A stretch of DNA of 33,671 nucleotides from an uncultured Chitinophagaceae bacterium (GTDB lineage: Bacteria > Bacteroidota > Bacteroidia > Chitinophagales > Chitinophagaceae), in the NCBI GenBank assembly GCA_964242675.1, contig CAXTDG010000001.1, positions 1 to 33,671 on the forward strand. Direction: 5' to 3'. The notes beneath the pieces are model-generated. The model was not told the origin of the DNA, did not search any database, and was given only the letters and a program-made list of their open reading frames with translations. How positions within the stretch are numbered: position 1 is the stretch's first letter; each line of letters starts with the position of its first letter. This document shows positions 2,157-18,428 of this stretch, piece by piece. Both the position numbers and the translations under genes were made by a program.

Positions 2157-2359
2157 GTCAGGCAAACTTTTTTCAGTAAATGGTTGTGACAAGGCAGTAG
2201 AAAACCCCGTCTGCAATCTGTTCAAATATACATTGGCCAGACGCAACAATATTTATGAACATTCGGTTCGCCAGTACGTAGAAAACGGGTCTTTAAAATG
2301 CTTAATTATAAGCTGCAAAGCTGCTAAGTATCAATTGTGTTACTAGGCAAATGAGGGCA

Positions 2360-3529
2360 CTACATTTTGCTGCGTATCAATGCTTCCAGGTAATAATAAT
2401 CGGCATAAATAAGCGGTACGTCCACTTCACTTTTGGCAGGCCGATGGCCGGTGCTGTGTAGCAAAAGAAAACCCTTGTTTTCTCCTATCGGCGAACGATA
2501 CCCAGCTGTAAGGCTCTGCAACAAGGCATCAGCAAACGCTTTGTATTTTTTGCTCTGCTGGCTGTACTTACTTAACTCGTACAACGCAGCAGCGGTAATA
2601 GCGGCTGCCGATGCATCTCTGGATACGGCCGGTATTTGCGGATCGTTGTAATCCCAATATGGTATTTTATCGGCAGGTAATGATTGCCGGAGGAGGAAAG
2701 CTGCAATTTTATCAGCCTGCTGTAAATACGCTTTGTTCTTCGTTTCCCGGTAGCAAACAGTAAAGCCATACAAGCCCCAGGCCTGCCCCCGTGCCCAAGC
2801 CGAGGAATCGCTATAGCCCTGCACGGTTTGCTTGCCTCTTACGGCTCCGGTGGTGGTATCGTAGTCTACCAAATGGAAACAACTGCCATTGGGTCGGAAG
2901 TGATTTTTTAGAGTCGTGTTGGCATGGGTGACGGCTATTTTGTAAAAAGAGGAATCGCCGGAAAACCGGGTAGCGTTGAAGAGTAATTCCAGGTTCATCA
3001 TGTTATCAATAATAACCGGGAACTGCCAGTTTTCTTTGTTGAAATCCCAGGATTTAATAACACCCGTAACCGGCCGAAAACGGGTGCTGAGACTTTTAGC
3101 TGCCTGTATAATGATGGCCCGGTAAGCAGTGTCTTTCGTAAGCCGGTAGCCATTTCCATAACTGCAATACACCATAAATCCCAGGTCGTGTGTGCCGGTG
3201 AAGTATTTCAGATCCTGTAGCTTTTGAGTATACTGTCGTGCCAGGTCAGCCCACTTTTTATTCTTCGTGTACTGGTATAAATACCACAATTCTCCGGCAA
3301 AAAAACCGCTCGTCCAGTCCCTCATGGCCACCATTTTTAGCTGGCCGTTTTCAAGAGTGCGGGGTGCTGCCAGGTCTGGTTTGCCAGTAGGTACTTCGGC
3401 ACAACTTTTCAGCATTACATCAGTTTGCTTTTCGGCATCTTTTACTACGGCTCCTACGTTTACCGGCTGGGCATAATTGTTATAGAAAACAGCCAGTAAC
3501 AAGGCAAGGCTGAGCAATTTTGTTTTCAT
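2360..3529 (-). CDS. GH88 unsaturated glucuronyl hydrolase
   Basis: 389 aa with ATG start and signal peptide MKTKLLSLALLLAVFYNNYAQ. GH88-type motifs: DWTSGFFAGELWY, VIIDNMMNLELLF, CFHLVDYD, QGYSDSSAWARGQAWGLYGF. Confidence 0.85.
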   Translation of the reverse strand: MKTKLLSLALLLAVFYNNYAQPVNVGAVVKDAEKQTDVMLKSCAEVPTGKPDLAAPRTLENGQLKMVAMRDWTSGFFAGELWYLYQYTKNKKWADLARQYTQKLQDLKYFTGTHDLGFMVYCSYGNGYRLTKDTAYRAIIIQAAKSLSTRFRPVTGVIKSWDFNKENWQFPVIIDNMMNLELLFNATRFSGDSSFYKIAVTHANTTLKNHFRPNGSCFHLVDYDTTTGAVRGKQTVQGYSDSSAWARGQAWGLYGFTVCYRETKNKAYLQQADKIAAFLLRQSLPADKIPYWDYNDPQIPAVSRDASAAAITAAALYELSKYSQQSKKYKAFADALLQSLTAGYRSPIGENKGFLLLHSTGHRPAKSEVDVPLIYADYYYLEALIRSKM

Positions 3530-3661
3530 AGCTATTTACAAAAAATAATTATTGAATAGTACAAGAGATGAGTTACCGCCAGAAAGCAAAGTACACTAAG
3601 ACGACAAGGGCTTTTACAATGGTTGCTTAGAGTTATAGCTGTATCTATAGCAAAACTGCGG

Positions 3662-5398
3662 TTACATTTTTGTGAAGCGAATCTTACTCAATTTATATCC
3701 ACCTTGTACTGCTTTAATTCTTAACTGATGAACACCTTTCGATAAGGTAACGGCTTGTGGTGTTGTCCACTGCCAGGAAGTGGTGCCTGGCGTTGCTTTG
3801 ACAGGCACATTTTCCAGCAAAGGTTGCTCCTTTTCTATTACAATTATCTTACCATCGAGGCTATCCGCAGCTGCCTGGAAACTAATATTGTACTTGCCAT
3901 TTTTTTGAACCTGTACCGTGTATTGCAGCCATTCGCCATCTTCAATAGAAAAGACATAACTACTATCTTTTCCACCTTCAATATCAACCCCATCATTTCG
4001 GTAAGTTCGCCCCCGGTTGCCTACCGTACGCACACCCGGTGTGTACTGGTAACTGGCCGTATCTTTATCGTAATAAGCAACACCCTGGCTGCCCATATCG
4101 TAGTCTATTGCTAGTAAGGTGTAATCGTTAGTAATGCTATGTTTTTTGAAAGGAATGGCGGTAGCTGAAGCAACCTGCCTGAACATAGCATCAGGCACAT
4201 CTCGATGATAAATATTGTTCTTGATTTTGATGGCTTCAATCAACTGCTGCAATATAGTCCAGGCTTCTTCCGGTGAAGGTTTTTCACCCCTGCCATTCCA
4301 GTATTTTACCAGCTTATCATAACCACTTGGCACCACTATTTCCAACGGATTATTGATGCCCATTTTCTTTTCCTGCCACCAGGCCCAGCCAATGCCATTG
4401 CTTTCTACTAATTGTATAGCATGAGTAAACCAATTGTTAGAATTTTCGCCACTTTCGCCCATCCAAATCGGCACATTGTATTTATCCCGCAGATTTAGAA
4501 AAGATTTAATAGCGCCTTCTGTATTAAAGTTGCCGTACTTGTGAAAACTGAGCTCCATGTTACTATCCCAAGTGGGTAAGATACTATTGTAATTATTTCC
4601 AAAGCCATTGCCTTCAATAATAATTAGGTGCTTTGTATCCACTTCCCGAATGGCTTTGGTAATGTCCATCATTAGTTTACGCAACGGCTCGTTTTTCTTT
4701 TCAGCAGTGCCCCGGAAATCTTTTGGATCCTCAAATCCCCAGTTGGGTTCATTAATAATATCGTAGCCACCGATATATGGTTCGTTAGCATAGCGTTGGG
4801 CCAGCTTTTTCCACAGGGCAATTGTCTTTTGCTGGTTCGCATCACTTTGCCATAAGCTTGGTTTGGTAGTGTCTCTGTCGGAAATGGCCAGGTCATTTCC
4901 CTGACCGCCGGGTGTAGCATGCAGGTCTAATATGAGGTACATTTTATTAGCCTTACACCAGGCCAAAAGGCTATCAGTTATGGCAAAGCCTTTGGTTAGC
5001 CAGGTGTTTTGCCCGGCCACCGGTTCTTTCTCTACTGGCAAAGTGTAGAGATTGTAATGCATGGGCAAACGAATGGAATTAAATCCCCATGCAGCCATTG
5101 AATCAACATCCGTTTTTGTGGTATGATTCAGTAACCATTCGTTGTAAAACTGTTCTGCTTTATCAGCACCAACTACATCTGCAATCTTTGCTTTAATGCG
5201 GTGCTGCTGACCAATACCTCCCAGGCGAAACATATAGCCTTCCTGCAACATCCACCCGCCTAATCCCATTCCCCGCAGAATGATTTTACTGCCCTTTTCA
5301 TCTACAATGTATTTGCCTTCTGCTCTTAAAAATCCTTGACCGAAGCCAGATGTTGTAATTGCAATAAGCAGTAATCCGGCAAGCCATTTTTGTATCAT
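3662..5398 (-). CDS. GH5 beta-glucanase/glucosidase-like enzyme with a C-terminal CBM6/35-like module
   Basis: 578 aa with a signal peptide. GH5 motifs: LRGMGLGGWMLQEGYM, FNSIRLPMHY, ILDLHATPGGQG, acid/base YDIINEPNW, IWMGESGE. The C-terminal ~140 aa (GVAYYDKD...RNDGVDIE...GEWLQYTVQV...LSKGVHQLRIKA) look like a CBM6/35 beta-sandwich. Confidence 0.85.
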   Translation of the reverse strand: MIQKWLAGLLLIAITTSGFGQGFLRAEGKYIVDEKGSKIILRGMGLGGWMLQEGYMFRLGGIGQQHRIKAKIADVVGADKAEQFYNEWLLNHTTKTDVDSMAAWGFNSIRLPMHYNLYTLPVEKEPVAGQNTWLTKGFAITDSLLAWCKANKMYLILDLHATPGGQGNDLAISDRDTTKPSLWQSDANQQKTIALWKKLAQRYANEPYIGGYDIINEPNWGFEDPKDFRGTAEKKNEPLRKLMMDITKAIREVDTKHLIIIEGNGFGNNYNSILPTWDSNMELSFHKYGNFNTEGAIKSFLNLRDKYNVPIWMGESGENSNNWFTHAIQLVESNGIGWAWWQEKKMGINNPLEIVVPSGYDKLVKYWNGRGEKPSPEEAWTILQQLIEAIKIKNNIYHRDVPDAMFRQVASATAIPFKKHSITNDYTLLAIDYDMGSQGVAYYDKDTASYQYTPGVRTVGNRGRTYRNDGVDIEGGKDSSYVFSIEDGEWLQYTVQVQKNGKYNISFQAAADSLDGKIIVIEKEQPLLENVPVKATPGTTSWQWTTPQAVTLSKGVHQLRIKAVQGGYKLSKIRFTKM

Positions 5399-5430
5399 CG
5401 TTTTATTTTCTTTTTCTATTGTCCTAAACG

Positions 5431-5500
5431 TATAAACCTATAAGGTCTATCTTGGTGTGCATCGTTTTTGAAGTCCGAAATAGACCTTATAGGGTTTATA
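5431..5500. repeat. 20-bp inverted repeat (hairpin or palindromic operator) between the GH30 stop and the GH5 start
   Basis: TATAAACCTATAAGGTCTAT (5431-5450) against ATAGACCTTATAGGGTTTATA (5480-5500). The arms are reverse complements apart from one extra G, with a 29-nt spacer. The element begins 7 nt after the stop codon at 5508. Confidence 0.7.
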
Positions 5501-5507
5501 ATATTCC

Positions 5508-6902
5508 CTACCAAACATAAGTAGCTACCGACGCTGCAGGCAGCGCCGTATTGATACCTTTTTTATTGGAAGCGATACTGATCTTTTTTTCTTCAGCAGT
5601 ATTGTTCAATACAATCAAAACTGTTTTCCCCTGCGGTGTTTTAAAAGCCACGTTTGGCAATACCCCGTCTGTTGTAGAAGCAATGCGAACTGATCCGGGC
5701 TTTACAAATTTGGCCGCATGGGCAATGATGTAATAAGCCGGATTACGGGCCACACTGTCTTTATCAATGGTGATGGCGCCCAGGCATTTATTACAGCCGC
5801 CACGGTCAGTAAAAGGTTTGTTTTCGGGATCGTTAGCCAGGTTCCATTCTATCACGGTGCGGCACCAGTTGCGGGTAGCACCAATGATCAATTTTTGTAC
5901 ATGCTCTGGTATGTCTCTTTTGAAATTGCCCGGCGCCCCAACCCATTGCTCTGTGAAGTATAAATTCTTGACTGGAAATGCATCATGCACTTTGGAAAGT
6001 GCTTCTATTTTTCCGCCATATAAGTGAAAGGCAGATCCATCTACATATTGGGCTGCATCTGCATCCTGTAAAATGCTGATGGGGTATTCCGGCTTGTCGG
6101 CATTGTGATCGTACACAATGATTTTGGTAGTAAGCTTGGCCGCTTTAAATGCAGGCCCTAAACGCTGTTTTACAAATGCCGCCTGCTCATTCGCAGGCAT
6201 AAACATGCTGGGATTATTGCCGGGATGTAATGGCTCATTCTGTATGGTCATGGTTGCAATACGGATGCCCTGCTGTTGCATGGATTGAATGTATTTCACT
6301 AGGTAACGAGCATACGTATCATAGTACTGCGGCAACAAACTTCCGCCTCTTGTATCCTTATTGGTTTTCATCCATACCGGGGCGCTCCACGGCGATGCCA
6401 TAATACCAATATTCGGATTGATTGCTAATATTTCTTTCAGCACCGGAATGACATCTTGTTTATCCGGACCCAAATCAAAGTGAACTAACATTGTATCTAT
6501 TTCGCCAGCGGGCAAATCATCGTATGAAAAAACATGATCATTAAGATCGGAGGCACCAATACTTACCCGCAGATAGCTAGTGCCAATATTATTTTTATCA
6601 GAAGTGAAAAGCTCCTGTAGTAACGCTTTCCTGGCAGCAGCGTTCATGTGAATGATGTGTTGGGCACTACCACCGGTCAACGCAAAACCGAAACCATCTA
6701 TTGGTTGAAAAACCTGCTTTTCATCTACCATAATAGTGCTGGAATCAGGCACTATTTTCTTTGATAAGGTAATGGATGCCTGCTGCTGAAACAATGTTGT
6801 TTTATCAAACTTGGTTAACCACACTTCTGTTTTTTGTTGGGCATGGCAATACAGCCCCGCCAGTGCCATAGCACTGCATAACAATTGTCTTTTAAAATTC
6901 AT
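5508..6902 (-). CDS. GH30 glycoside hydrolase, glucosylceramidase/beta-1,6-glucanase-like
   Basis: 464 aa with a signal peptide. GH30 pattern: FQPIDGFGFALTGGSA, YLRVSIGASD, MASPWSAPVWMK, acid/base TIQNEP, FTEQW. Confidence 0.85.
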   Translation of the reverse strand: MNFKRQLLCSAMALAGLYCHAQQKTEVWLTKFDKTTLFQQQASITLSKKIVPDSSTIMVDEKQVFQPIDGFGFALTGGSAQHIIHMNAAARKALLQELFTSDKNNIGTSYLRVSIGASDLNDHVFSYDDLPAGEIDTMLVHFDLGPDKQDVIPVLKEILAINPNIGIMASPWSAPVWMKTNKDTRGGSLLPQYYDTYARYLVKYIQSMQQQGIRIATMTIQNEPLHPGNNPSMFMPANEQAAFVKQRLGPAFKAAKLTTKIIVYDHNADKPEYPISILQDADAAQYVDGSAFHLYGGKIEALSKVHDAFPVKNLYFTEQWVGAPGNFKRDIPEHVQKLIIGATRNWCRTVIEWNLANDPENKPFTDRGGCNKCLGAITIDKDSVARNPAYYIIAHAAKFVKPGSVRIASTTDGVLPNVAFKTPQGKTVLIVLNNTAEEKKISIASNKKGINTALPAASVATYVW

Positions 6903-6907
6903 TTGTA

Positions 6908-8347
6908 TTACTTAATAATGATCGTTGAAATAGAATGCGGAAGGCTTTCTGTTAGTGCTGCTTTGCCATCCATCCAAAGATTGTAAGTTAATTTTTGATC
7001 GGTGGTATTCATCACCACAACCGCTATGCTACCATCCGGATTTTTGAAGGCTGTAGTTTGCAAAGCTGCTCGGCTACCGGAAGCACTAATTCGTCTGGCA
7101 CCTGGCTGTATATATTTTGAAAAATGACCTAGGTAATAGTAGGCGTTAGTATAAATAAGCTTACCTGTTCTAGTGTCCGCATGGATGGGTGCAAAACAGA
7201 AATTACCTACATGGTTAGGGCCACCGGTTTCATCCAGCAGAATATTCCAATCCGTCCAGGCGGCGGTGCCGTTATTGAAGTCGTTGATCATGGAATAACC
7301 ATAGCGTTCGCCCAGGCTCCAGTCGTCTACTTTATCTAGCTTAAACTGCTCTTTACAGCCTTCTGTAAAAATGAGCGCCTTGTCCGGAAAAGCTTTGGCA
7401 ACAGCACCTACGTTATCCACCTGCATGGGGCCACCAGTCCAGGTTTCATACCAATGAAAGCCCAATCCCCATACGTATTTAGCAGCAGCCGGATCGTTAT
7501 AAATAACCGATGCTCTTTGATACATCAAGTCCCGGTTATGATCCCAGGCAATAAGTTTTTTACTACTCAAACCGGCTTTTTGAAGGGTGGGTCCAAGGTA
7601 AATTTTGATAAAATTCCGTTCGTCTTCCGCCGTGTAAATACAGCTTTCCCATTTCTGCCGAGCCATGGGTTCGTTCTGTGTACTCAGGCCCCACACAGGT
7701 ATGCCTTTCGCTTCATATGTCTTAATGAATTTTACATAGTAGTTGGCCCAAATTTGCTTGTATGCATCGGCCAGTTTACCGCCGTGCAGCATGTCATTAT
7801 TATCCTTCATCCAGGCAGGTGGGCTCCAAGGCGTTACGTACAAATTCAACTTGCCGCCAGCCGCTGCCATCGCTTGTTTTATCAATGGAATTTTGTACTG
7901 CTCATCATGCTTTACATCAAAGGTTTTTAGTTCCTTATCGCCATCGGTAACATACACATACGTATCGCTGCTAAAGTCGCAACTATTGATGTTGGTGCGG
8001 GCCATGGTGTAGCCAATTCCTTTTCGCTTATCGTAGTAAGCGGTCAGCAATTCCTGCTGCTGTGCCTTAGGCAATTTAGCAAAGGTTTCCGCTGAAGCAT
8101 CGGTCAATGCGCCACCCACACCAATAAAGGTTTGGAAGGTATGTTGAGGATCAATAAACACACAAGGTTCTGTTTCTAGTGGCTGTGGTTTGTCGGTAAA
8201 ACTGAGCTGACCTGCTTCGCCAAAACGCATATCGGTTTTATCCGCCGTAGTGTACACCGTGGCGGTATACATTTTTGCTTTAAGAACCTGTGCATAAGTG
8301 GCATTTCCAAAAGCCAGGATGGCTAAAGCGACTACTAATTTCTTCAT
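6908..8347 (-). CDS. GH30 glycoside hydrolase, glucocerebrosidase-like paralogue
   Basis: 479 aa with a signal peptide. Motifs: FIGVGGALTDASAE, ARTNINSCDFS, VTPWSPPAWMK, STQNEP, FTEGC. Its stop lies only 5 nt upstream of the next GH30 start. Confidence 0.85.
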   Translation of the reverse strand: MKKLVVALAILAFGNATYAQVLKAKMYTATVYTTADKTDMRFGEAGQLSFTDKPQPLETEPCVFIDPQHTFQTFIGVGGALTDASAETFAKLPKAQQQELLTAYYDKRKGIGYTMARTNINSCDFSSDTYVYVTDGDKELKTFDVKHDEQYKIPLIKQAMAAAGGKLNLYVTPWSPPAWMKDNNDMLHGGKLADAYKQIWANYYVKFIKTYEAKGIPVWGLSTQNEPMARQKWESCIYTAEDERNFIKIYLGPTLQKAGLSSKKLIAWDHNRDLMYQRASVIYNDPAAAKYVWGLGFHWYETWTGGPMQVDNVGAVAKAFPDKALIFTEGCKEQFKLDKVDDWSLGERYGYSMINDFNNGTAAWTDWNILLDETGGPNHVGNFCFAPIHADTRTGKLIYTNAYYYLGHFSKYIQPGARRISASGSRAALQTTAFKNPDGSIAVVVMNTTDQKLTYNLWMDGKAALTESLPHSISTIIIK

Positions 8348-8445
8348 ATCTGTATCTTCTTTTTTCTTTCAATAATGTTGGCCAGGCGTGTAAATTCTTT
8401 CCAGTAATTATTCGAATAAATTAATTTAAAAAACTGCTATAATTT

Positions 8446-10467
8446 TTATCGGTCACTCATTTCTTCAGCCACTTGCTTTGCTCTACTTCGGGGTGTTGCA
8501 GTTTGTTTTGCATGTGGTTCTTCATCCAATACCAATATCGTCCAGCCGTCGGCGCTATCGTGTTTCAATTCCTTCTTTTTTTCTTCCAAAGCGGCTTTCA
8601 CTTTTACGCTGATGGCGTAGCAAGTAGCCTGGCGTATTTCCAGTAACCGGGAAAGTTTGTGAGAGGAAATTTTGCCTTTTGTAGCGTACAATAGTGAGGT
8701 CATGTAAAACGCTTTGTTCATTGGTATCCTCGTATTCTCGAACAAAGTGCCGGTAGTGGCAGATTCTTCGTAGCGGCACTTGGCGCAGCGGTGGCTGTAA
8801 GGCGTTTTACCGGGCCGTGAATCATTGCTGCCACATCTTTTGCAAGTAAAACCGTTGCTCCATTTCAAGTCGGCTAGCAACTTGAAACAACTGTCTTCAT
8901 CAGGATAACTTTGGCTGAATTCCTCGAACGTAAGATCAGAGGATAACACCCTGGCTTTACTGATTTTTGTAACGTTTGTTTTGAGGGTCGTGTTATCCGC
9001 TTCCAGCACTACGTTAATCTTCGAAATCTCTTCCGATTGTATTTTCAATTGCTCGTTGGCTTCCTGCAAATCTTTGTTTTGCTGCGATATAATTAAGGCT
9101 TGTCGTTGTACCTCGGAAGTTCGCTGCTGCACCTTAATTTCGAGTTCCTTATTCAGGTTGTTTTGTAAATCGGTATTAATAAGCATTTGTCGGATAGTTT
9201 CTTCCTGCGCCTTTTCTTTTTGCTTTTTTAGGAAACGCAGCCGGTCGCCCAGGGCAAAGCCCAGACAGCACATTTCAACAACAAAGCAGCAACTAATAAC
9301 GTAGTAAGCAAACATGCTTTCGTTGAGCCAGGAAACGCCAGTAAGGGCAAGTAATTTCAGGATAATACCAACTATCAGGAAGCTAAAACCCAGTACAAAA
9401 AAACGGGCAGGTTCGTACCCGTTTCGTAATCGCCGGATGCCGATAAAAAAACACAGGCCGATAGGCAGCAGGTCAATGAATTTGTAGTTGAAGAAATTGT
9501 GATTTACGAAAAGACAAATCCCGAAGAAAATAGTACGAACCAATATAGTAATCTTCACCGCCTGATGTAGCCGGGGCGCTCTTTTTCGCAGCTTTAGCAG
9601 GCTATCGGTAAATAGTAATGAAAAAACGGTAGCCAGGAAAAGCATCACCCCATACGCTATCTGGTTCCAGTGGTTGAATTGTGGCCATAAGTATTGGTAA
9701 GCAATGCCATCGCTGCTCATTTCGTACAGGCCTACACTTAGCATGTATAGCACATAATACAAGTAATGCCGCTGCCGGATGGCGAAGAACAGAATGAGAT
9801 TATAGAAACAAAAAATGAGGATCATTCCATAGAAAATACCAAAGAAAAAATACTCGTTGGTAGCATACCCGATGAACCAGTTTTTGCTGCGTAAAACGAC
9901 GATTAAGTTAGTAAGCTGCGATGATTTTATTTTGAAGTAATAAGTGTGGGTAGATGTATCGAAATTGGCGATGTCCATTACAAAATTTTTGTGGCGAATA
10001 GGGCGTTCGCCAAAAATTTTTGCATCGCCAAGATGCCATATATCGTAGCCTTTGTTTTTGTTAGGCAGATAAGCAGTGATGCTGTCTATCGTTTGGTCGA
10101 AAAGTTCCAGCACATATCGCCTGTTTACTGTGCTATCGAGATGAATATTGAGCCGACACCAATAGCTGTAATTGGTATTGTAAGTACGGGGTGTTGTAGT
10201 GGCAGGAGCTCTGAAATGACTGGCAAAAGCAGCGGATCGCACCTGCTGCAAACTCAATACCTCATTGGTGTCTACCAGGTATTCAATCTGATGGTTAATA
10301 AATACCCGTTGCTCCAAAACTGTGTTTAACTGAACCGTATCCTGCGAACGGGCAGGTATGCAAAAAAGCAGCATGCAAATTATTATTGCAATGCTTTTAT
10401 AGCTCGCCGTCAGTTGCTTCTTTTTAGGGCAACCATATTTTGAATTGTATGTAGAGAAAGCAATCAT
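8446..10467 (-). CDS. 7TMR-DISM receptor (DISMED2 ectodomain + 7TM) fused through a coiled coil to an IS1595-transposase-like zinc-ribbon/HTH domain; putative membrane-bound regulator
   Basis: 673 aa with an ATG at 10467, 12 nt after the GH18 stop. aa ~45-195: DISMED2-like (NYSYWCRLNIHL...RYVLELFDQTIDSITAYL...HTYYFKIKSS). aa ~200-410: seven hydrophobic helices. aa ~411-510: heptad-rich Q/E/K/L segment. aa ~514-627 (nt 8587-8928): FKLLADLKWSNGFTCKRCGSNDS...YSHRCAKCRYEESATTGTLFENTRIPMNKAFYMTSLL...ISSHKLSRLLEIRQATCYAISVKVKAAL, matching the CxxC...CxxC + HTH N-terminus of IS1595-family transposases. No DDE domain follows. Confidence 0.75.
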   Translation of the reverse strand: MIAFSTYNSKYGCPKKKQLTASYKSIAIIICMLLFCIPARSQDTVQLNTVLEQRVFINHQIEYLVDTNEVLSLQQVRSAAFASHFRAPATTTPRTYNTNYSYWCRLNIHLDSTVNRRYVLELFDQTIDSITAYLPNKNKGYDIWHLGDAKIFGERPIRHKNFVMDIANFDTSTHTYYFKIKSSQLTNLIVVLRSKNWFIGYATNEYFFFGIFYGMILIFCFYNLILFFAIRQRHYLYYVLYMLSVGLYEMSSDGIAYQYLWPQFNHWNQIAYGVMLFLATVFSLLFTDSLLKLRKRAPRLHQAVKITILVRTIFFGICLFVNHNFFNYKFIDLLPIGLCFFIGIRRLRNGYEPARFFVLGFSFLIVGIILKLLALTGVSWLNESMFAYYVISCCFVVEMCCLGFALGDRLRFLKKQKEKAQEETIRQMLINTDLQNNLNKELEIKVQQRTSEVQRQALIISQQNKDLQEANEQLKIQSEEISKINVVLEADNTTLKTNVTKISKARVLSSDLTFEEFSQSYPDEDSCFKLLADLKWSNGFTCKRCGSNDSRPGKTPYSHRCAKCRYEESATTGTLFENTRIPMNKAFYMTSLLYATKGKISSHKLSRLLEIRQATCYAISVKVKAALEEKKKELKHDSADGWTILVLDEEPHAKQTATPRSRAKQVAEEMSDR

Positions 10468-10479
10468 TCTACTCCAAAA

Positions 10480-11616
10480 CTAATTTAGATTTTTAGTAAT
10501 CGTTTGCAAAAGATAGGTCTTTGGGTCGTCGGAATATTCCCAGAACATCACACCACCCATAGACTGTTGTTTTACATATTGGCACTTCGCTTTTACTGAC
10601 TGCTCATCGTCGTACGAGATGAAGATTTTTTCTTTGGAATTAAAAAGATAAGGTGCCTGTGCGGCATCATCCCAGTAGCGAACGAACCCATCACGGGTTA
10701 TGATGCTGTCTTTTATAAATGAGTAGCCGCCTGTGTAAAAATTGCTGGCAACTTTTTGACCCATACCATTGTTAGCAGTGTCTTCAACCGTCCAGCCACG
10801 GCCATAAAATGCAAGGCCCATCACCAGCTTTTTTGCAGGTACGCCTGCTGCTACAAATGCTTGCACGGCACGGTTTGCAGCGTTGCCTTCGGGCTGTGTT
10901 TTAGTAGGGTATAAATTGGTATGATGCCCGGCTGTACCCCAACCATAATCGTAAGTCATCAGGTTGATGAAATCGAGGTATTGCTGTGCCTTTGCCATCT
11001 CCGTATTTTTCAAAAACTCGTTGAAGCCACCGGCTGCTGTGGTGAGTAAATATTTTTGTTTTGTTAGATGTTGTACCGCATCTAATTGCTGGCGGATGGC
11101 TTGGAATATGAGGGTGTAATTCTGTTTGTCCTCCGGGCGGTAGATGTTGCCATCGCCCTGCATGTTTGGGTATTCCCAATCAATATCTACTCCATCTAAA
11201 TTGTACTGCTGTACAATGGCTACAGCGCTCGCCGCAAAGTTTTTCCGGCCGGTATCCGTAAGGGCTGCATCCGAAAAGTTTTTGCTCCAGCTCCAGCCGC
11301 CTATCGAAATCAGAATCTGTAAAGCCGGATTTTTCTTCTTCAAAGCTACCAAGTTTCTAAAATTGACCGTATCAGTATTTTCATGATGCAGCCACGCCCG
11401 GTTGTCTTTAATATCTACAAATGCATAGTTGATATGGGTGAGTTTATCTACCTGTAAAATGGATGTATCAATGATGCCTTTATAGCCCGCTACATAACCA
11501 ATGACCACTGGTTTTATTTTCTTTTCTGGCTTAGTGGGGTTGGCTTTAGATAATTGGCATAAACTTGCACACAATGCAACAATTGCTAACAGTATTTTCA
11601 TTTTGTTTTTATGCAT
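10480..11616 (-). CDS. GH18 chitinase / endo-beta-N-acetylglucosaminidase-like enzyme
   Basis: 378 aa. Catalytic DxxDxDxE motif DGVDIDWEYP; also ISIGGWSWS, MTYDY, MFWEYSDD. Signal peptide present. Alternative ATG at 11601 (MKILLAIVAL). Confidence 0.9.
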   Translation of the reverse strand: MHKNKMKILLAIVALCASLCQLSKANPTKPEKKIKPVVIGYVAGYKGIIDTSILQVDKLTHINYAFVDIKDNRAWLHHENTDTVNFRNLVALKKKNPALQILISIGGWSWSKNFSDAALTDTGRKNFAASAVAIVQQYNLDGVDIDWEYPNMQGDGNIYRPEDKQNYTLIFQAIRQQLDAVQHLTKQKYLLTTAAGGFNEFLKNTEMAKAQQYLDFINLMTYDYGWGTAGHHTNLYPTKTQPEGNAANRAVQAFVAAGVPAKKLVMGLAFYGRGWTVEDTANNGMGQKVASNFYTGGYSFIKDSIITRDGFVRYWDDAAQAPYLFNSKEKIFISYDDEQSVKAKCQYVKQQSMGGVMFWEYSDDPKTYLLQTITKNLN

Positions 11617-11709
11617 GCGGCATTTTAGTTTTTGACTGTATCATATAGAGCCGCACAACCGTACGTCTCTACTACAGCCTGATAGAGATGCGCCCAAATT
11701 TTCCTTGTG

Positions 11710-12375
11710 TTATTTTACGAGATAAGGTGTGATAATTTTTTTCCAGATGTCGTAGCCGATGGGCTTCATGTGCAGGCGGTCTTCTATGTATAGTTCTTCC
11801 CGCATGTTGCCGCTGGCATCGAGCATAGCATCGTACACATCTATGAAGTCAGCGTTCTTTTGTTTTTTGATGAAGGATTTGATGAGTGTATTAGTGGCTT
11901 TTACCCGTTCCTGAATCTTCATTCGGGAAGGGCTGGGCTTGATGGAAACATAACTGATGCGAGCCTGTGGCAGATTGATGCGAATAATGCTGAACAGCGT
12001 TTGAACCCGCTGTAGCACTTCATTTGGCGTTAGCGTATCATTAGCAGCCAAATCGTTTTCACCGCAATAAATGAGCACTTGTTTTGGGTGATAAGGCATC
12101 ACCACATCGTAGCTATAGCGAATGACATCTTTGAGAATGGAACCGCCGAAAGCCCGGTTAAGAATAGGATACTCGGGGAAGTACGATTCAATGCCAGCCC
12201 AGCGGGTAAAAGAAGAACTGCCTATAAATAAAATGGGCGCCTGCACGGGTGTCTGGGCGGAGTCTTTCTTTTTGAATGCAACTATATCCTGCCAAAAGGG
12301 AGGTGCTGTTTGGGCCTGTGTGAAAAGTGCCTGCATCAACAGCACCACAACTATCCATTTTTTCATCACTTTCAT
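11710..12375 (-). CDS. SGNH/GDSL-family hydrolase, probably a carbohydrate esterase
   Basis: 221 aa with a signal peptide. SGNH blocks: ILFIGSSSFTRW (block I Ser), AFGGS (block II), IYCGENDL (block III), DRLH (block V). Confidence 0.75.
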   Translation of the reverse strand: MKVMKKWIVVVLLMQALFTQAQTAPPFWQDIVAFKKKDSAQTPVQAPILFIGSSSFTRWAGIESYFPEYPILNRAFGGSILKDVIRYSYDVVMPYHPKQVLIYCGENDLAANDTLTPNEVLQRVQTLFSIIRINLPQARISYVSIKPSPSRMKIQERVKATNTLIKSFIKKQKNADFIDVYDAMLDASGNMREELYIEDRLHMKPIGYDIWKKIITPYLVK

Positions 12376-12421
12376 TTGTTTTGCTAAAAGTAAACTGCCT
12401 GAAGCTTTTGACTATCTTAAT

Positions 12422-13234
12422 CTATTTTTTCCCTAGCCATAGCAGTGAATTAATCAGCATTTGGTTCTGTTCTTTACTGCCGAAACTGGAGGATAATGGT
12501 TTGTTAGTTTTGCCTTCGTAATCCATATCGTTGTGGCCCATGTTTACATACACCATTTTGTAACTTTTGTTGGTCCAAACAACAGGGTAGTAGCCGCTGT
12601 GCCATATCTCGTATTGCTTGGGGCCGGTGCCCAATGGAAAGCTGGTGGAGTCGATGGTTAGAAGGATTTTGATGTCCCTGTTTTGACGTAAATCCTTTTC
12701 CCAGCGGTACCACTCATTGGGTTGCGAATGGAAAGTATCAGGCAATCCTTTGGTGACGGCATGTTTATTTTCTACCCGCAATACGGCGGCGGTTGGCCGC
12801 CAGGTATTGCTACCGTATTGGCCGCATCCTAAGAACTCGTTGTGGTACCAATCCCAGTTTTGCGGCACGCCGGAAGGGGTGAGGGCAAAGGCGGCAAAGT
12901 GAAATCCCATCCAGGCACCGCCTCTTTTCATGTACTGCTCAAATGCAGCTCTTTGGGCTGGCTTTTCAGGCCGGGTATCTAAGCACAGAACGACTTTGTA
13001 ATTAGCTAAGAAATCAGCATTCAAGTTGTCCCAGTTGGTGGTGGTATCATAACTGAAATGGTATTTTTCTGCCATTTGAGGAAACCATTCGTTGGCTTCT
13101 TTTACGAAGCTAATATGCGCCAAGTCAGCTTTGCCGGTGAAGAATGCAATGACTTTGAAGGCTGGCTTTTGAGCGAATGATTGAGTGGCTAAAACGATCC
13201 CTAAAATGGTGGTTAGAAAAAAGCGTTTACTCAT
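12422..13234 (-). CDS. ThuA-like protein (class-I glutamine-amidotransferase fold, trehalose-utilisation-like)
   Basis: 270 aa with a signal peptide. The pattern KVIAFFTG...YKVVLCLDT...GGAWMGFHFAA...HAVTKGLP...NEWYRW...PVVWTNK...VYVNMGHN resembles ThuA-family proteins. Assignment is by eye only. Confidence 0.55.
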   Translation of the reverse strand: MSKRFFLTTILGIVLATQSFAQKPAFKVIAFFTGKADLAHISFVKEANEWFPQMAEKYHFSYDTTTNWDNLNADFLANYKVVLCLDTRPEKPAQRAAFEQYMKRGGAWMGFHFAAFALTPSGVPQNWDWYHNEFLGCGQYGSNTWRPTAAVLRVENKHAVTKGLPDTFHSQPNEWYRWEKDLRQNRDIKILLTIDSTSFPLGTGPKQYEIWHSGYYPVVWTNKSYKMVYVNMGHNDMDYEGKTNKPLSSSFGSKEQNQMLINSLLWLGKK

Positions 13235-13268
13235 AATGATCTATGGTTCTTATTGCTTGTAGCGGCAC

Positions 13269-13480
13269 CTCACCCCCAGCCCCTCTCCAAGCCAAAGGCT
13301 TAGAGAGGGGAGCCGCTGTTCGTACTTTGTAAACAGTTTTATTAGCGGGTTTATGAAAAATGATTTCTAAAAACAAGCAGTCAACTTAAATGACAGGAAT
13401 CCACTGCTTAACTAAAACAATCAAAGCCCCACAGAGGCACCCCTCTATACGGCTTGCCGTGAAGAGGGGATGGGGGTGAG
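13269..13480. repeat. MITE/BIME-like element: two GC-rich palindromic units in inverted orientation flanking an AT-rich core
   Basis: CTCACCCCCAGCCCCTCTCC (13269-13288) matches the reverse complement of 13461-13480 (CTCACCCCCATCCCCTCTTC) at 18 of 20 positions. Each end also folds locally: CCCCTCT...AGAGGGG at 13281-13310 and at 13440-13469. The element fills most of the spacer between the SusD stop (13482) and the ThuA-like start (13234). Confidence 0.7.
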
Positions 13481-13481
13481 A

Positions 13482-15179
13482 TTACCACCCGGTATTTTGC
13501 TGCCAGTTGGTTTTAGAAATTTCATTTTGTGTAATGGGATACCAATACATTTTATCTTCAAACACCCGGTCCTCTAATTTCTTTACGGCGTAGGTAAATG
13601 CGCTGCCGTTAGCGGTAATTTCAATGCGGTTGAGCGGTGCTCTGAAGTAGGTTGCTTTCTTCCAGCGGCGTACATCCCAGGAGCGTTGGTCTTCAAAACT
13701 GAGTTTCACATTTCGTTGGGTTTCTATACGCTCCTGTGTAAGCTGAGCGGCAGTAAGAACCGGCATTTTTACATTGTTGCGCTGGCGTACCAGGTTGATG
13801 GCTTGCAGGGCTGTAGTACCATAAGCCATTGGGTCGGCGGTGGGGCCGTAGGCGTTGTACATAGCTTCTGCATAACCGAGTAAAATATCAGCATAGCGGA
13901 AATAAATCCAGGCATGGTTGGTAGTAGTGTTATTCACCAGATCTACACTGGAGTTGTTCCATTTTAGTAAATAGTAGCCGGTCTTAGTAGCGTTTTGCTT
14001 GGGTAAGCCACTATTGCCACCGGTGAAGGTTTCAATCACTCTGGATTTGAATGAAGCACCATTTGTAATGACAGAAAAAGCCAGCCGGGGATCACGGTTT
14101 GCATACGGATTAGCGGTATGCGTCGGGTCGTTCCAATTGAATGGAACGGAACCGGTAACAACACCCGAGGTGTTTTTTATTAATACTTCATAATTATCTA
14201 CCAGGTTTTGACTAGGCGTAATACTGCTGCCGTTGCTGCCTTCAAAAAGGATAGGGAAATTGTTTCTTTCCATTGCATTTTGTGCACCGTACCGACGATA
14301 AAAAATTACCTCGGCAGAAGAGGTGTTATTAGCGCCAAAAAGATTGGTGTAACTACCATCAAGCGAATAAGCATTTAGGGCAATTACTTCTCTTGCGGCT
14401 TGTGCAGCTTCGGCCCAAGTGATGGTAGAGCCTTTGTCTTTAAATAGCGGACTAGCACCATACAAAAAAGCTTTTGCCTTTAGCGCTTTGATGGAACCTA
14501 GCGTTACCCGACCGGCCTGGTACCAAGTGTAAGTAGCAATATTAGCCGGGATAATAGTGGCGGCTTTATCACACAAACTACCAATGTAGCGCAGGCAGGA
14601 ATCAACCGAGCTGCGTTGTATATTTTTCCAGGAATCTTCATTTTCGTAATCCAGCGCTTCAGGAATTACCGGTACGCCACCGTAACGTTTTACCAATTCA
14701 AAGTAAAAAAATGCTTTTAAAAACAGGGCTTCACCTTCCATGAATTTCACATTATTTCTTGCATTGAAATAAGTAGTAGAATCGGTAGAAGTAATCCGGT
14801 CTTTGATATAGCCAATGTCCACTTTGTCCTTGTTTTTCAAATACAAATTGGCCTGGCGAATACCACTGAAATTATTGGCCCAGGCAGCGGCATCGGGGTT
14901 GTTGTATTGGTTCCAAATGCCGTAGTTGAAACTTTGCGAACGGTCGGTTACATTGGTGGCTTCGGCATTGTCGGTCGCCGCTTCTAAATACAGTTTATCA
15001 AACCCATCGGGCAGGTAGCTGTAAATGTTCCAAACTACCTGCTGCACGTAGGCATAATTAGTATAAAGCAATTCAACCGGCACATTGGCTTGTTCACTTT
15101 TTACATCGAGGTATTGCTTATTGCAGGCGCTGATGCAAACGGCCAAAAGCAGCACTGGTATATATCTTACTGATTTCAT
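13482..15179 (-). CDS. SusD/RagB-family glycan-binding outer-membrane lipoprotein (pair B)
   Basis: 565 aa. Lipoprotein signal MKSVRYIPVLLLAVCISAC. SusD-like TPR region (EALFLKAFFYFELVKRYGGVP, FRYADILLGYAEA) and typical ...QQNTGW C-terminus. Lies downstream of a SusC-like gene. Confidence 0.9.
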   Translation of the reverse strand: MKSVRYIPVLLLAVCISACNKQYLDVKSEQANVPVELLYTNYAYVQQVVWNIYSYLPDGFDKLYLEAATDNAEATNVTDRSQSFNYGIWNQYNNPDAAAWANNFSGIRQANLYLKNKDKVDIGYIKDRITSTDSTTYFNARNNVKFMEGEALFLKAFFYFELVKRYGGVPVIPEALDYENEDSWKNIQRSSVDSCLRYIGSLCDKAATIIPANIATYTWYQAGRVTLGSIKALKAKAFLYGASPLFKDKGSTITWAEAAQAAREVIALNAYSLDGSYTNLFGANNTSSAEVIFYRRYGAQNAMERNNFPILFEGSNGSSITPSQNLVDNYEVLIKNTSGVVTGSVPFNWNDPTHTANPYANRDPRLAFSVITNGASFKSRVIETFTGGNSGLPKQNATKTGYYLLKWNNSSVDLVNNTTTNHAWIYFRYADILLGYAEAMYNAYGPTADPMAYGTTALQAINLVRQRNNVKMPVLTAAQLTQERIETQRNVKLSFEDQRSWDVRRWKKATYFRAPLNRIEITANGSAFTYAVKKLEDRVFEDKMYWYPITQNEISKTNWQQNTGW

Positions 15180-15220
15180 TGTTCTGATTTTTTAATTGTA
15201 TCTCAATTTAAATTGAACGG

Positions 15221-15375
15221 TTTACCACATAGGCACATAAGCCGCATAGAAGGGTTGGAAAGTGATTTTCTAACCACTGTGAACCTTGTTATTTCAAGCA
15301 GTAGTGAGGGAAGAAAAACACATAGCTTTTGCCCAATCTTTCATTCCTATGATGCTATGTGTCTATGTGGTAAAA
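15221..15375. repeat. MITE-like inverted-repeat element (CACATAG family) inside the susC-susD spacer
   Basis: TTTACCACATAGGCACATAAGCCGCATAGAAGG (15221-15253) matches the reverse complement of 15341-15375 (TTTTACCACATAGACACATAGCATCATAGGAATGA). Of the first 19 aligned nt, 18 are identical, then CATAG blocks realign. A 14-nt exact match to the arm core (ACCACATAGACACA) recurs at 26216-26229. Confidence 0.7.
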
Positions 15376-15390
15376 TATATGCTCTCACTT

Positions 15391-18240: not shown

Positions 18241-18308
18241 CGTTGGTTTGAGTTTTACAAATTTTTCGTCTTATAACTTTTGTCTTACTCTTCTTGCCAG
18301 CCGCCGAC

Positions 18309-18350
18309 CTCATCCCTAACCCTCTTCAATGGAGAGGCGCACCTCTCTCG
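18309..18350. repeat. Solo, degenerate copy of the GC-rich palindromic unit seen at 13269-13480
   Basis: ACCTCATCCCTAACCCTCTTCAATGGAGAGG resembles ACCTCACCCCCAGCCCCTCTCCAAGCC (13267-13293). It contains overlapping small stems CCTCT/AGAGG and GAGAGG/CCTCTC. It sits in the 188-bp spacer between the SusD-A stop and the SusC-B start. Confidence 0.5.
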
Positions 18351-18428
18351 AAGCAATTGGAATAATGCTTTGAGGTGAATGGGTTGCAGGATCTTCTATT
18401 AACAGCGAAAGAAAGTTTGACGGGCTTT

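What the first reader, a model, noticed from the sequence alone, without database searches (positions are those of the whole stretch)
8446..10467. 7TMR-DISM sensor fused to a transposase-derived zinc-ribbon/HTH: candidate new type of membrane-tethered PUL regulator
The sequence shows one uninterrupted 673-aa frame with four parts. First, a DISMED2-like periplasmic domain (nt ~9883-10335), a module predicted in the literature to bind carbohydrates. Second, seven hydrophobic helices (nt ~9238-9870). Third, a ~100-aa heptad-rich coiled coil (nt ~8938-9237). Fourth, a C-terminal block (nt 8587-8928): FKLLADLKWSNGFTCKRCGSNDS...HRCAKCRYEESATTGTLFENTRIPMNKAFYMTSLL...SHKLSRLLEIRQATCYAISVKVKAAL. That block reads like the CxxC...CxxC zinc ribbon plus HTH at the N-terminus of IS1595-family transposases (Pfam Zn_Tnp_IS1595 type). 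No DDE catalytic domain follows. The protein stops ~45 aa later, near a short LVLDEE string that may be a vestige of the point where the DDE domain normally begins; this is tentative. The output modules I know of for 7TMR-DISM receptors are histidine kinase, GGDEF, cyclase and PP2C phosphatase; I do not know of a DNA-binding transposase module among them. The ~20-kb PUL has no hybrid two-component system, SusR, ECF sigma/anti-sigma, AraC, LacI or GntR gene, so this is its only regulator-like protein. Its ATG is 12 nt after the GH18 stop, which suggests co-transcription with the enzymes. My inference is a one-component, ToxR/CadC-style regulator that either stays membrane-bound or is released by proteolysis, built from a domesticated IS DNA-binding domain.
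Basis: partly seen in the sequence, partly recalled or inferred. Interest (0 to 1): 0.85.

Follow-up and report, generated by a model that had tools for sequence, protein, structure and literature searches.

The report
Membrane sugar sensor with transposase-derived DNA-binding domain
This gene encodes a membrane sensor fused directly to a DNA-binding module borrowed from a jumping-gene enzyme. It belongs to a widespread, unstudied family that sits next to fungal beta-glucan-degrading gene clusters in soil Bacteroidota and very likely switches them on.

Summary
ORF 8446-10467(-) encodes 673 aa: signal/anchor, 7TMR-DISMED2, seven TM helices, a ~100-aa helix, then a zinc-ribbon plus HTH module. 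That module is homologous over ~125 residues to the whole pre-catalytic N-terminus of IS1595 transposases (hhalign E 2e-33). There is no DDE domain.

It is not a strain-specific scar. More than 1000 full-length homologues exist in Pedobacter, Mucilaginibacter, Chitinophaga and Cytophagia. In 67 of 80 genome loci the gene lies directly upstream of SusC-SusD-(GH3)-GH30, where the GH30 is like BT3312, an endo-beta-1,6-glucanase. Bacteroides thetaiotaomicron has a SusR-type regulator at that position.

The same coiled-coil/Zn-ribbon/HTH cassette also ends ~1000-aa Reg_prop/Y_Y_Y proteins that lack kinase and receiver domains and also sit in PULs.

A 17-bp motif, GGTAnTnAAGCGTATCA, occurs as two direct copies 90-92 bp apart upstream of the SusC promoter. 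The window has a weaker version of this layout with 91-bp spacing. It is a candidate operator.

Best reading: a membrane-spanning one-component PUL activator, analogous to SusR and BguR, with a new sensor/DNA-binding-domain combination. I found no publication on it. DNA binding, the ligand and the activator role are inferred, not shown.

The parts
8446..10467 (-). Whole gene: 673-aa 7TMR-DISM / Zn-ribbon-HTH protein (stop codon 8446-8448)
   Evidence: ORF; Pfam. The M1 start is conserved in L083, while M32 is CTG there.
10342..10467 (-). N-terminal signal peptide or membrane anchor (aa 1-42): KKK n-region, hydrophobic IAIIICMLLFCIPA, then RSQ/D
   Evidence: Hydropathy; AF2 helix 17-36. Homologues have an equivalent ~25-30 aa leader ending in AQ.
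9892..10293 (-). Periplasmic 7TMR-DISMED2 sensor domain (aa 59-192), a CBM-like beta-sandwich
   Evidence: Pfam E 2e-28. Foldseek best hit is the RetS periplasmic domain 3JYB, E 6e-6, TM-score 0.82 normalised to the target.
9241..9855 (-). Seven transmembrane helices (aa 205-409)
   Evidence: Pfam 7TMR-DISM_7TM E 2e-46. AF2 shows seven helices between aa 195 and ~410. Hydropathy.
9025..9240 (-). Cytoplasmic long helix continuing from TM7 (aa 410-481); putative dimerising signalling helix
   Evidence: AF2 single helix 385-481. One hydrophobic heptad seam. The segment is also conserved in the Reg_prop/Y_Y_Y class.
8935..9024 (-). Linker (aa 482-511): conserved in sequence (the ARVxS motif, which leads into FEEF at aa 514-517 of the next part) but predicted with low confidence
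   Evidence: pLDDT below 50 for aa 480-511. Conservation.
8770..8904 (-). Four-Cys zinc ribbon (aa 522-566; C542, C545, C561, C564 invariant)
   Evidence: Pfam Zn_ribbon_IS1595, 33.4 bits. Invariant Cys. AF2 strands.
8581..8721 (-). Three-helix HTH (aa 583-629; GKISSHKLSxLLxIRQxTC recognition region)
   Evidence: AF2 C-terminal model with pLDDT 86. hhalign to IS1595 transposase residues 5-130, E 2.4e-33. tblastn 31-35% identity to annotated IS1595 transposases.
8524..8547 (-). Conserved family C-terminus DGWxxLVLD (aa 641-648); most homologues end here
8449..8523 (-). Lineage-specific 25-aa tail, low confidence; present only in the closest relatives
   Evidence: pLDDT below 50.
23938..23954 (-). 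Candidate operator site A (TTCCCTAAACCGTATCA). The core AACCGTATCA is kept; the GGTA half is degenerate.
23847..23863 (-). Candidate operator site B (GTGATTGAAGCGTATTG), 91 bp downstream of site A
   Evidence: PWM score 13.2 (the 18-position PWM hit spans 23846-23863). Spacing. The family spacing is 90-92 bp.
23886..23900 (-). Conserved middle element (CAACTGATATTCAAG; family consensus CTGnTTATCAG)
   Evidence: Cross-genus alignment.
23758..23790 (-). Bacteroidota-type promoter-like element (TTG ... TATACTTTTAC) upstream of the first SusC
   Evidence: Aligned with the conserved CTTG...TAACTTTA of 12 loci. Assigning these as -33/-7 boxes is my inference from the published Bacteroides consensus.
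141..23550 (-). Presumed regulated gene set, all on the minus strand. In transcription order: two SusC/SusD pairs, ThuA, GDSL, GH18, [regulator], GH30 (GH30_1-like), GH30 (BT3312-like), GH5-CBM6, GH88-like, GH53-T9SS.
   Evidence: Pfam; PDB sequence matches; gap sizes.

Best explanation
The gene encodes a membrane-spanning one-component transcriptional regulator of the surrounding PUL, which targets fungal cell wall and beta-1,6-glucan.

Proposed mechanism: oligosaccharides imported by SusC/D, probably beta-1,6-gluco-oligosaccharides, bind the periplasmic DISMED2 domain. The signal passes through the 7TM bundle into a long, probably dimeric helix. That helix repositions a C-terminal zinc-ribbon/HTH domain derived from an IS1595 transposase. 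The domain binds 17-bp direct repeats (GGTAnTnAAGCGTATCA, two copies about 91 bp apart) roughly 85-190 bp upstream of the SusC promoter and activates transcription. No phosphorelay is involved.

In this window the regulator sits inside the operon, so it would also amplify its own expression.

Shown here: the architecture, the homology of the DNA-binding domain, the family's conservation, the linkage to SusC/D and GH30, and the conserved motif.

Inferred: DNA binding to that motif, the activator role, the ligand, dimerisation, and action from the membrane.
For: 1. Architecture.
2. The C-terminal module matches the entire pre-catalytic N-terminus of bona fide IS1595 transposases. hhalign gives Prob 99.9, E 2.4e-33, module columns 7-132 against transposase residues 5-130; the Pfam DDE domain starts at residue 130-131. 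tblastn gives 31-35% identity. The Zn-binding Cys residues and the HTH residues are invariant.
3. Conservation: more than 1000 full-length homologues. The species-representative genome collection gave 340 confirmed stretches. The cassette profile found 294 clusters (50% identity) at E<=1e-30, nearly all with the domain at the C-terminus.
4. Synteny: in 67 of 80 loci the order is regulator -> SusC -> SusD -> (GH3) -> GH30 on one strand, while the upstream context varies among at least 5 arrangements. Most of the other loci have GH30 or GH5 adjacent. The partner GH30 best matches BT3312 (5NGK), an endo-beta-1,6-glucanase.
5. Non-orthologous displacement: the B. thetaiotaomicron PUL for 1,6-beta-glucan has a SusR-type regulator at the same position (PMC5481569).
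6. Same cassette on a second sensor: Reg_prop + Y_Y_Y + TM + coiled coil + Zn-ribbon/HTH, with no HK or REC domain. These proteins lie in PULs with SusC/D and GH43.
7. Motif: two direct copies 90-92 bp apart in 55 of 68 regulator-SusC intergenic regions across genera (63 of 68 carry at least two core matches), and the motif forms conserved islands in otherwise diverged sequence. Sites outside the training set lie upstream of GH30/GH5-regulator operons in Mucilaginibacter. The exact two-site pattern hit 18 metagenome contigs, and all 18 carry the regulator directly upstream. The window has the same layout, with 91-bp spacing, 13 kb from the gene.
8. Precedent for the mechanism: BguR (10.64898/2026.01.10.698779).
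Against: - There is no experimental evidence of DNA binding, ligand binding or regulation for any family member.
- In most loci the motif and the regulator gene are adjacent. Their co-occurrence is therefore partly synteny. Only the Mucilaginibacter loci and the window separate the two.
- The window's own site A lacks the GGTA half and site B scores modestly (13.2). The recognition helix here also differs from the family consensus (RQATCYAIS against RQSTCWTFG).
- Foldseek found no significant solved structure for the C-terminal domain.
- 27 of the 80 loci also have an OmpR-type two-component pair just upstream.
- More distant members sit beside other sugar loci (GH16/GH3; ribokinase). The ligand is therefore not uniform across the family.
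Confidence: 0.72

Rival explanations
1. Same regulator, different mechanism of action. Ligand binding triggers regulated proteolysis in the conserved but disordered linker (aa 482-511). The released soluble Zn-ribbon/HTH domain then acts on DNA, instead of binding from the membrane.
For: The linker has a low-confidence structure but a conserved sequence (the ARVxS motif, leading into FEEF at aa 514-517) in both sensor classes. Several short database entries consist of the C-terminal module alone, though most are probably contig fragments.
Against: No protease gene is conserved in the loci. The ~70-aa helix plus ~30-aa linker could reach DNA from the membrane, as reported for ChiS, ToxR and BguR-type systems. 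The coiled coil is conserved together with the DNA-binding domain as a unit, which suggests conformational coupling.
Confidence: 0.15
2. The Zn-ribbon/HTH module does not bind DNA. It is a protein-interaction or sequestration module, for example holding a soluble transcription factor or sigma factor at the membrane. The conserved repeats would then be bound by that other factor.
For: DNA binding is untested. 27 of 80 loci have an adjacent OmpR-type response regulator and histidine kinase, and OmpR-family proteins bind direct repeats.
Against: The two-component pair is absent from the other 53 loci, from the window and from the metagenome loci, all of which still carry the motif. The module keeps the residues shared with transposase DNA-binding regions, including the HTH recognition helix. 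No other regulator gene is conserved in the neighbourhood.
Confidence: 0.08
3. The gene is an IS1595 insertion scar that truncated an ordinary 7TMR-DISM sensor kinase, or it is part of an active mobile element.
For: Only the Pfam name of the zinc ribbon, and NCBI's 'transposase' label on one fragment.
Against: Identical architecture and C-terminus in more than 1000 proteins at ~50% identity. The gene is single copy and syntenic in 80 genomes. There is no DDE domain and no kinase remnant. The cassette is joined in-frame to a conserved coiled coil in two sensor classes.
Confidence: 0.01

Closest known systems
BguR, the membrane-spanning one-component beta-glucan PUL activator of Formosa agariphila (bioRxiv 10.64898/2026.01.10.698779)
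   Same: Periplasmic sensor, membrane span, helical linker and cytoplasmic DNA-binding domain, with no phosphorelay. [quoted passage not shown] The sister architecture found here (Reg_prop/Y_Y_Y + Zn-ribbon/HTH) even shares BguR's sensor type.
   Different: BguR has a tandem beta-propeller/Y_Y_Y sensor, one TM helix and a GerE/LuxR HTH. This protein has a DISMED2 sensor, seven TM helices and an IS1595-type Zn-ribbon/HTH. BguR's function is shown genetically; this protein's is not.
SusR and the SusR-type regulator BT3309 of the B. thetaiotaomicron 1,6-beta-glucan PUL (PMC5481569)
   Same: Membrane-associated one-component PUL regulator. BT3309 occupies the same position (regulator - SusC - SusD - GH30_3 ... 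GH3) as this family does in Pedobacter and Chitinophaga.
   Different: No sequence or domain relationship was detected; Pfam finds only the three domains listed. The sensor and the DNA-binding domain differ.
7TMR-DISM receptors (RetS, LadS; Anantharaman & Aravind 2003, cited from my own knowledge)
   Same: DISMED2 periplasmic domain (Foldseek hit to RetS 3JYB) and the 7TMR-DISM 7TM module.
   Different: The outputs I know of are histidine kinase, GGDEF, cyclase and PP2C, plus a ChiS-type DNA-binding domain noted in 10.1101/2020.11.18.389122. Here the output is a transposase-type Zn-ribbon/HTH.
IS1595-family transposases (ISXO2-like)
   Same: The N-terminal ~125 residues (Zn ribbon + HTH) are homologous to the C-terminal module here (hhalign E 2e-33; 31-35% identity).
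   Different: No DDE_Tnp_IS1595 catalytic domain. The gene is not flanked by IS ends and is single copy and syntenic. The module is at the C-terminus of a receptor.
ToxR, CadC and ChiS membrane-bound DNA-binding regulators
   Same: Sensing and DNA binding in one membrane protein. ChiS and ToxR bind DNA from the membrane.
   Different: ToxR and CadC have an N-terminal OmpR-type winged helix, one TM helix and a C-terminal periplasmic sensor, which is the opposite topology. ChiS retains kinase and receiver domains.
Hybrid two-component systems (HTCS) of Bacteroides PULs
   Same: PUL-linked inner-membrane glycan sensors. The sister class here shares their Reg_prop/Y_Y_Y sensor.
   Different: No HisKA, HATPase, REC or AraC domains.

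Membership tests
7TMR-DISM receptor family | Extracellular 7TMR-DISMED2 (or DISMED1) domain | tested here: met
   Pfam PF07696, E 2e-28. Foldseek hit to RetS periplasmic domain 3JYB, E 6e-6, TM-score (target) 0.82.
7TMR-DISM receptor family | 7TMR-DISM_7TM module with seven helices | tested here: met
   Pfam PF07695, E 2e-46, full-length match 1-205/205. AF2 shows seven helices.
7TMR-DISM receptor family | Cytoplasmic output of a described type (HK, GGDEF, cyclase, PP2C) | tested here: not met
   No such Pfam or NCBIfam hit. The output is a Zn-ribbon/HTH.
IS1595-family transposase | N-terminal Zn ribbon plus HTH DNA-binding region | tested here: met
   Pfam PF12760, 33.4 bits. hhalign E 2.4e-33 to residues 5-130 of an annotated IS1595 transposase. 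tblastn.
IS1595-family transposase | DDE_Tnp_IS1595 catalytic domain | tested here: not met
   No PF12762 hit at E<=1. NF033547 gives only 19 bits against a cutoff of 75, over model positions 1-60. The true transposases L081 and L082 do hit PF12762.
IS1595-family transposase | Mobile element behaviour: terminal inverted repeats, variable or multi-copy location | tested here: not met
   The gene has the same syntenic position next to SusC/GH30 in 80 genomes. It is fused in-frame to a receptor.
Membrane-spanning one-component PUL regulators (functional class: SusR, BguR) | Periplasmic sensor + TM + cytoplasmic DNA-binding domain in one polypeptide, without phosphorelay domains | tested here: met
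   The topology is inferred from the signal peptide plus seven TM helices.
Membrane-spanning one-component PUL regulators (functional class: SusR, BguR) | Conserved adjacency to SusC/SusD and cognate CAZymes | tested here: met
   67 of 80 loci are directly upstream of SusC-SusD-(GH3)-GH30. In all 18 metagenome loci the regulator gene lies directly upstream of the motif, with SusC downstream wherever the contig extends that far (14 of 18).
Membrane-spanning one-component PUL regulators (functional class: SusR, BguR) | [quoted passage not shown] | tested here: met
   GGTAnTnAAGCGTATCA in two copies with 90-92 bp spacing. The window has 91-bp spacing.
Membrane-spanning one-component PUL regulators (functional class: SusR, BguR) | Regulator required for substrate-dependent PUL induction | not testable with these tools
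   Needs deletion plus RNA-seq or growth assays.
BguR family (homology) | Reg_prop/Y_Y_Y sensor and GerE-type HTH | tested here: not met
   Neither domain is found in the window protein. The sister class has Reg_prop/Y_Y_Y but a Zn-ribbon/HTH in place of GerE.
Hybrid two-component system (HTCS) | HisKA + HATPase_c + REC + AraC HTH | tested here: not met
   No hits.

The most novel reading that the evidence does not exclude
The coiled-coil + IS1595-type Zn-ribbon/HTH cassette is a previously unrecognised, transposase-derived transcriptional output module of Bacteroidota. It is plugged onto at least two unrelated periplasmic glycan sensors (7TMR-DISM and HTCS-like Reg_prop/Y_Y_Y) to form phosphorelay-free, membrane-spanning PUL activators. 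These would bind spaced direct repeats. If so, this is a third major class of PUL regulator alongside HTCS and ECF-sigma/anti-sigma systems, and a clear bacterial case of a domesticated IS DNA-binding domain serving as a transcription factor.
Probability: 0.6. Interest if true: 0.82.

Novelty: new variant of a known kind. Interest (0 to 1): 0.74.

Why it matters
How PULs are regulated outside gut Bacteroides is largely unknown. Many soil and marine PULs have no recognisable HTCS, SusR or ECF system.

This family would assign a regulator to a conserved set of fungal beta-1,6-glucan PULs in Pedobacter, Mucilaginibacter and Chitinophaga. Through the sister Reg_prop/Y_Y_Y class it would do the same for other PULs. 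These proteins are currently annotated only as '7TM diverse intracellular signaling domain-containing protein', or wrongly as 'ParA'.

It also gives a defined, testable operator-regulator pair and a compact ligand-to-promoter switch that could be used as a biosensor. Finally, it would be an example of a transposase DNA-binding domain exapted into bacterial signal transduction.

Tried and rejected
- A single-sequence scan of the genome collection found nothing. The alignment-based scan worked.
- The word-index protein search with the C-terminal domain returned only 11 short fragments. The exhaustive representative search was informative.
- I tested whether the operator resembles IS1595 terminal inverted repeats. 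The IRs of the closest annotated IS (Chondrinema, AATAGGGTTACCCAT...) do not resemble GGTAnTnAAGCGTATCA. My recollection that the ISSod11-group end is 'GcnTATC' could not be verified. I dropped this as unsupported.
- 'LVLDEE = remnant of the first DDE strand': the hhalign alignments stop at the DDE boundary, and MAFFT placed DGW arbitrarily. Not supported.
- Foldseek of the C-terminal model against the PDB gave no hit with E<1, only partial zinc-ribbon and HTH matches. phmmer of the whole protein against PDB sequences gave nothing.
- The OmpR-type two-component pair upstream could be the real regulator, but it is present in only 27 of 80 loci.
- Rfam found no regulatory RNA in the PUL leader, only a tRNA elsewhere.
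- Literature searches for this architecture returned nothing.
Full report
**1. Observation**

The window carries one uninterrupted 673-aa ORF at 8446..10467 on the minus strand.

Pfam finds three domains, all above their gathering scores:
- 7TMR-DISMED2, aa 59-192, E 2e-28
- 7TMR-DISM_7TM, aa 205-409, E 2e-46, full-length model match
- Zn_ribbon_IS1595, aa 522-566, E 4.5e-8, 33.4 bits against a cutoff of 25.4

Nothing else is found: no DDE domain, kinase, GGDEF or receiver. NCBIfam gives only a sub-threshold match to the start of the IS1595 transposase model at aa 578-634.

An AF2 model built on 38 homologues (pLDDT 75.5) shows:
- an N-terminal hydrophobic helix
- a beta-sandwich at aa 53-194
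- seven membrane helices, the last running on as a single helix to aa 481
- a low-confidence linker at aa 482-511
- a folded C-terminal domain

Foldseek places the sandwich on the RetS periplasmic domain (3JYB, E 6e-6, TM-score 0.82 normalised to the target).

Modelled alone with a more diverse alignment, the C-terminal domain reaches pLDDT 86 and pTM 0.77. It consists of two helices, zinc-ribbon strands and a three-helix HTH. No solved structure matches it as a whole.

The 'coiled coil' is a long helix with one clear heptad seam, not a textbook coiled coil.

The 12-nt gap after the GH18 stop is real. The M1 ATG is conserved in the 87%-identical relative, whereas the gene caller's alternative M32 codon is CTG there.

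**2. The C-terminal module is the transposase DNA-binding region**

tblastn of aa 505-655 against plasmids finds annotated IS1595-family transposases at 31-35% identity (E 1e-9 to 2e-12) over the zinc ribbon and HTH.

Two of these, from Chondrinema and Bacteroides faecis, carry DDE_Tnp_IS1595 starting at residue 130-131.

A profile of the module aligns to residues 5-130 of the Chondrinema transposase with Prob 99.9 and E 2.4e-33. It aligns to residues 9-123 of the Bacteroides one with E 3e-17.

The module therefore corresponds to the complete pre-catalytic N-terminus and stops at the catalytic boundary.

The last 25 residues of the window protein are a lineage-specific, low-confidence tail.

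**3. It is a conserved family, not a scar**

More than 1000 proteins match at full length. They are about 630 aa long and about 50% identical. They come mostly from Pedobacter, and also from Chitinophaga.

Their source names are '7TM diverse intracellular signaling domain-containing protein' or, wrongly, 'ParA'.

In a 38-sequence alignment the four zinc-ribbon Cys residues, the GKISSHKLSxLLxIRQxTC helix-turn-helix and the C-terminal GWxxLV(L/I)(D/E) are invariant or nearly so.

The species-representative genome collection yields 340 confirmed stretches. The best 80 come from Pedobacter, Mucilaginibacter, Chitinophaga, Arcticibacter, Pararcticibacter and Deminuibacter.

Members also occur on Cytophagia megaplasmids: Persicobacter, Flammeovirga and Aureibacter.

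**4. Genomic context**

I called ORFs in the 80 loci and clustered them by blastp.

In 67 of 80 loci the gene is followed directly, on the same strand, by SusC, SusD, an optional GH3, and a GH30 (Pfam). The upstream neighbours fall into at least five unrelated arrangements: a two-component pair, Lgt, OGG, SDR, an MFS transporter, NlpE and others.

Most of the remaining loci are Mucilaginibacter and have the order GH30 / GH5 / regulator / GH30. This resembles the window, where the order is GH18 / regulator / GH30 / GH30 / GH5-CBM6.

The closest relative (87% identity) has the same GH18-regulator-GH30-GH30 order.

The partner GH30, including the window's 5508-6902 copy, best matches 5NGK (E 8e-90 and 1e-92). 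5NGK is BT3312, the endo-beta-1,6-glucanase of B. thetaiotaomicron. The window's other GH30 (6908-8347) is GH30_1-like.

The B. thetaiotaomicron PUL for 1,6-beta-glucan has the order SusR-type regulator (BT3309) / SusC / SusD / GH30_3 / SGBP / GH3 (PMC5481569). This family therefore occupies the regulator slot of an otherwise equivalent PUL.

No other regulator-type domain is present among the window's ORFs.

**5. The same output cassette sits on a second sensor**

I searched 1.84 billion representative proteins with a profile of the C-terminal module. It returned 11,576 hits at E<=1e-3, which include true transposases, and 294 hits at E<=1e-30.

The top 150 are almost all proteins of ~580-660 aa with the module at the C-terminus. 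A second class of ~980-1100 aa is also present.

All eight long proteins I scanned have Reg_prop beta-propeller repeats, a Y_Y_Y domain and a C-terminal Zn_ribbon_IS1595, with no kinase or receiver. They also share the preceding helix and the ARVM...FEEF linker.

Two of their loci are PULs:
- SusC / SusD / GH43 / regulator ... GH43 ... SusC / SusD
- SusC / SusD / FG-GAP-UnbV_ASPIC / GH43 / regulator

This is the architecture of BguR with the GerE HTH replaced by the transposase-type module.

**6. A candidate operator**

The regulator-SusC intergenic regions are 221-391 bp long. Each contains two direct copies of GGTAnTnAAGCGTATCA.

63 of 68 regions have at least two core matches, and 55 of those have a start-to-start spacing of 90-92 bp. 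All copies are on the SusC strand.

In a cross-genus alignment these sites form conserved islands in otherwise diverged sequence. The other islands are a CTGnTTATCAG element between the sites, a TTATCA element after site B, and a TTG...TAACTTTA promoter-like pair.

A -7-like box starts a median of 70 nt after the site B core. Both sites therefore lie upstream of the promoter, roughly -85 to -190, which fits activation.

With a PWM threshold of 12, 134 of 148 hits across the 80 loci fall in that intergenic region. This is partly circular, because the PWM was trained on those regions. The non-training hits are informative:
- Strong single sites (scores 19-29) lie upstream of the GH30/GH5-regulator operons of five Mucilaginibacter loci.
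- Weaker sites lie in the SusD-GH3 gaps.

As a reverse test I scanned JGI metagenomes for the exact two-site pattern. It returned 18 contigs. All 18 carry a homologue of the regulator ending just upstream, and SusC lies downstream wherever sequence is available.

In the window the layout is kept upstream of the first SusC, 13 kb from the regulator:
- Site A core at 23938-23947, with its GGTA half degenerate
- Site B at 23847-23863, PWM score 13.2
- 91-bp spacing between the sites
- Middle element at 23886-23900
- Promoter-like element at 23758-23790

**7. Mechanism and its limits**

1. Periplasmic oligosaccharide binds the DISMED2 domain.
2. The signal is transmitted through the 7TM bundle and the long helix.
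3. The Zn-ribbon/HTH domain binds the repeats.
4. The SusC operon is activated.

The ligand would probably be beta-1,6-gluco-oligosaccharides for the GH30-linked clade. Because the gene lies inside the operon in this window, it would also feed back positively on its own expression.

Shown here: the architecture, the homology, the conservation, the linkage and the motif. Inferred: the binding, the sign of regulation, the ligand, dimerisation, and whether the protein acts from the membrane or after cleavage in the conserved but disordered linker.

Distant members sit in a GH16/GH3 PUL (Persicobacter) or beside ribokinase and a sugar transporter (Flammeovirga). Specificity therefore varies across the family.

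**8. Comparison with what is known, and novelty**

Membrane one-component PUL regulators are known: SusR, and BguR from a 2026 preprint. Membrane-bound DNA-binding sensors such as ToxR, CadC and ChiS are also known.

The sensor belongs to the 7TMR-DISM family but carries an output type I could not find described.

The protein fails membership of IS1595 transposases: it has no DDE domain and is not mobile. It also fails membership of the HTCS, BguR and SusR families by domain content.

Full-text searches found no paper on this architecture.

I rate it a new variant of a known kind. It is a new sensor/DNA-binding-domain combination within membrane one-component PUL regulators. It also brings the wider point that a transposase DNA-binding domain has become a modular signalling output on two sensor types.

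Noticed in passing
window 495-512 (-): GGTGAAAAAGCGTATCAG matches the operator pattern GGTNNNNAAGCGTATCR with no mismatch and scores 17.8 on the PWM, higher than the promoter sites. It lies inside the GH53-T9SS coding region, between the catalytic domain and the Por tail. No partner site lies ~91 bp away. It may be chance or an internal or downstream regulatory site; the window ends 500 bp further on.
   Followed up: partly
L109:454-516 (Persicobacter psychrovividus plasmid pPP7, upstream of the SusC of a SusC-SusD-PKD-GH3-GH16-[7TM regulator] PUL): Three tandem 21-bp direct repeats contain GGGTTACAT. The IR of a Cytophagales IS1595-family element (L081:1411-1435) contains GGGTTACCCAT. This could mean that distant family members use other direct-repeat operators, perhaps IR-like ones. 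The related Persicobacter locus L110 did not show the same repeats.
   Followed up: partly
L003:7932-9930 and 26 other Pedobacter loci: An OmpR-type response regulator and a histidine kinase lie immediately upstream of the regulator gene in 27 of 80 loci. This is probably lineage synteny, but cross-talk was not examined.
   Followed up: partly
L001:9399-9860 (cluster c4; about 47 loci): A conserved ~150-aa protein with no Pfam hit usually follows the GH30, and sometimes precedes the regulator. It is a possible uncharacterised PUL component.
   Followed up: no
window 27391-27460 (-): A tRNA gene (Rfam, 43 bits) lies between the ATP-grasp gene and the M14 peptidase gene, separating this PUL region from a second SusC/SusD pair at 30334-33658.
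   Followed up: no
window 12422-13234 and 11710-12375 (-): ThuA-like and GDSL esterase genes are embedded between the SusC/D pairs and GH18. The window's PUL also has two tandem SusC/SusD pairs and mixes GH18, GH30_1-like, GH30_3-like, GH5-CBM6, GH88-like and GH53-T9SS genes. This is far broader than the minimal SusCD-GH3-GH30 module of Pedobacter.
   Followed up: no
database annotations of homologues: Many family members are named 'chromosome partitioning protein ParA' in NCBI and UniRef. This looks like an annotation error, probably propagated from the coiled-coil segment.
   Followed up: no
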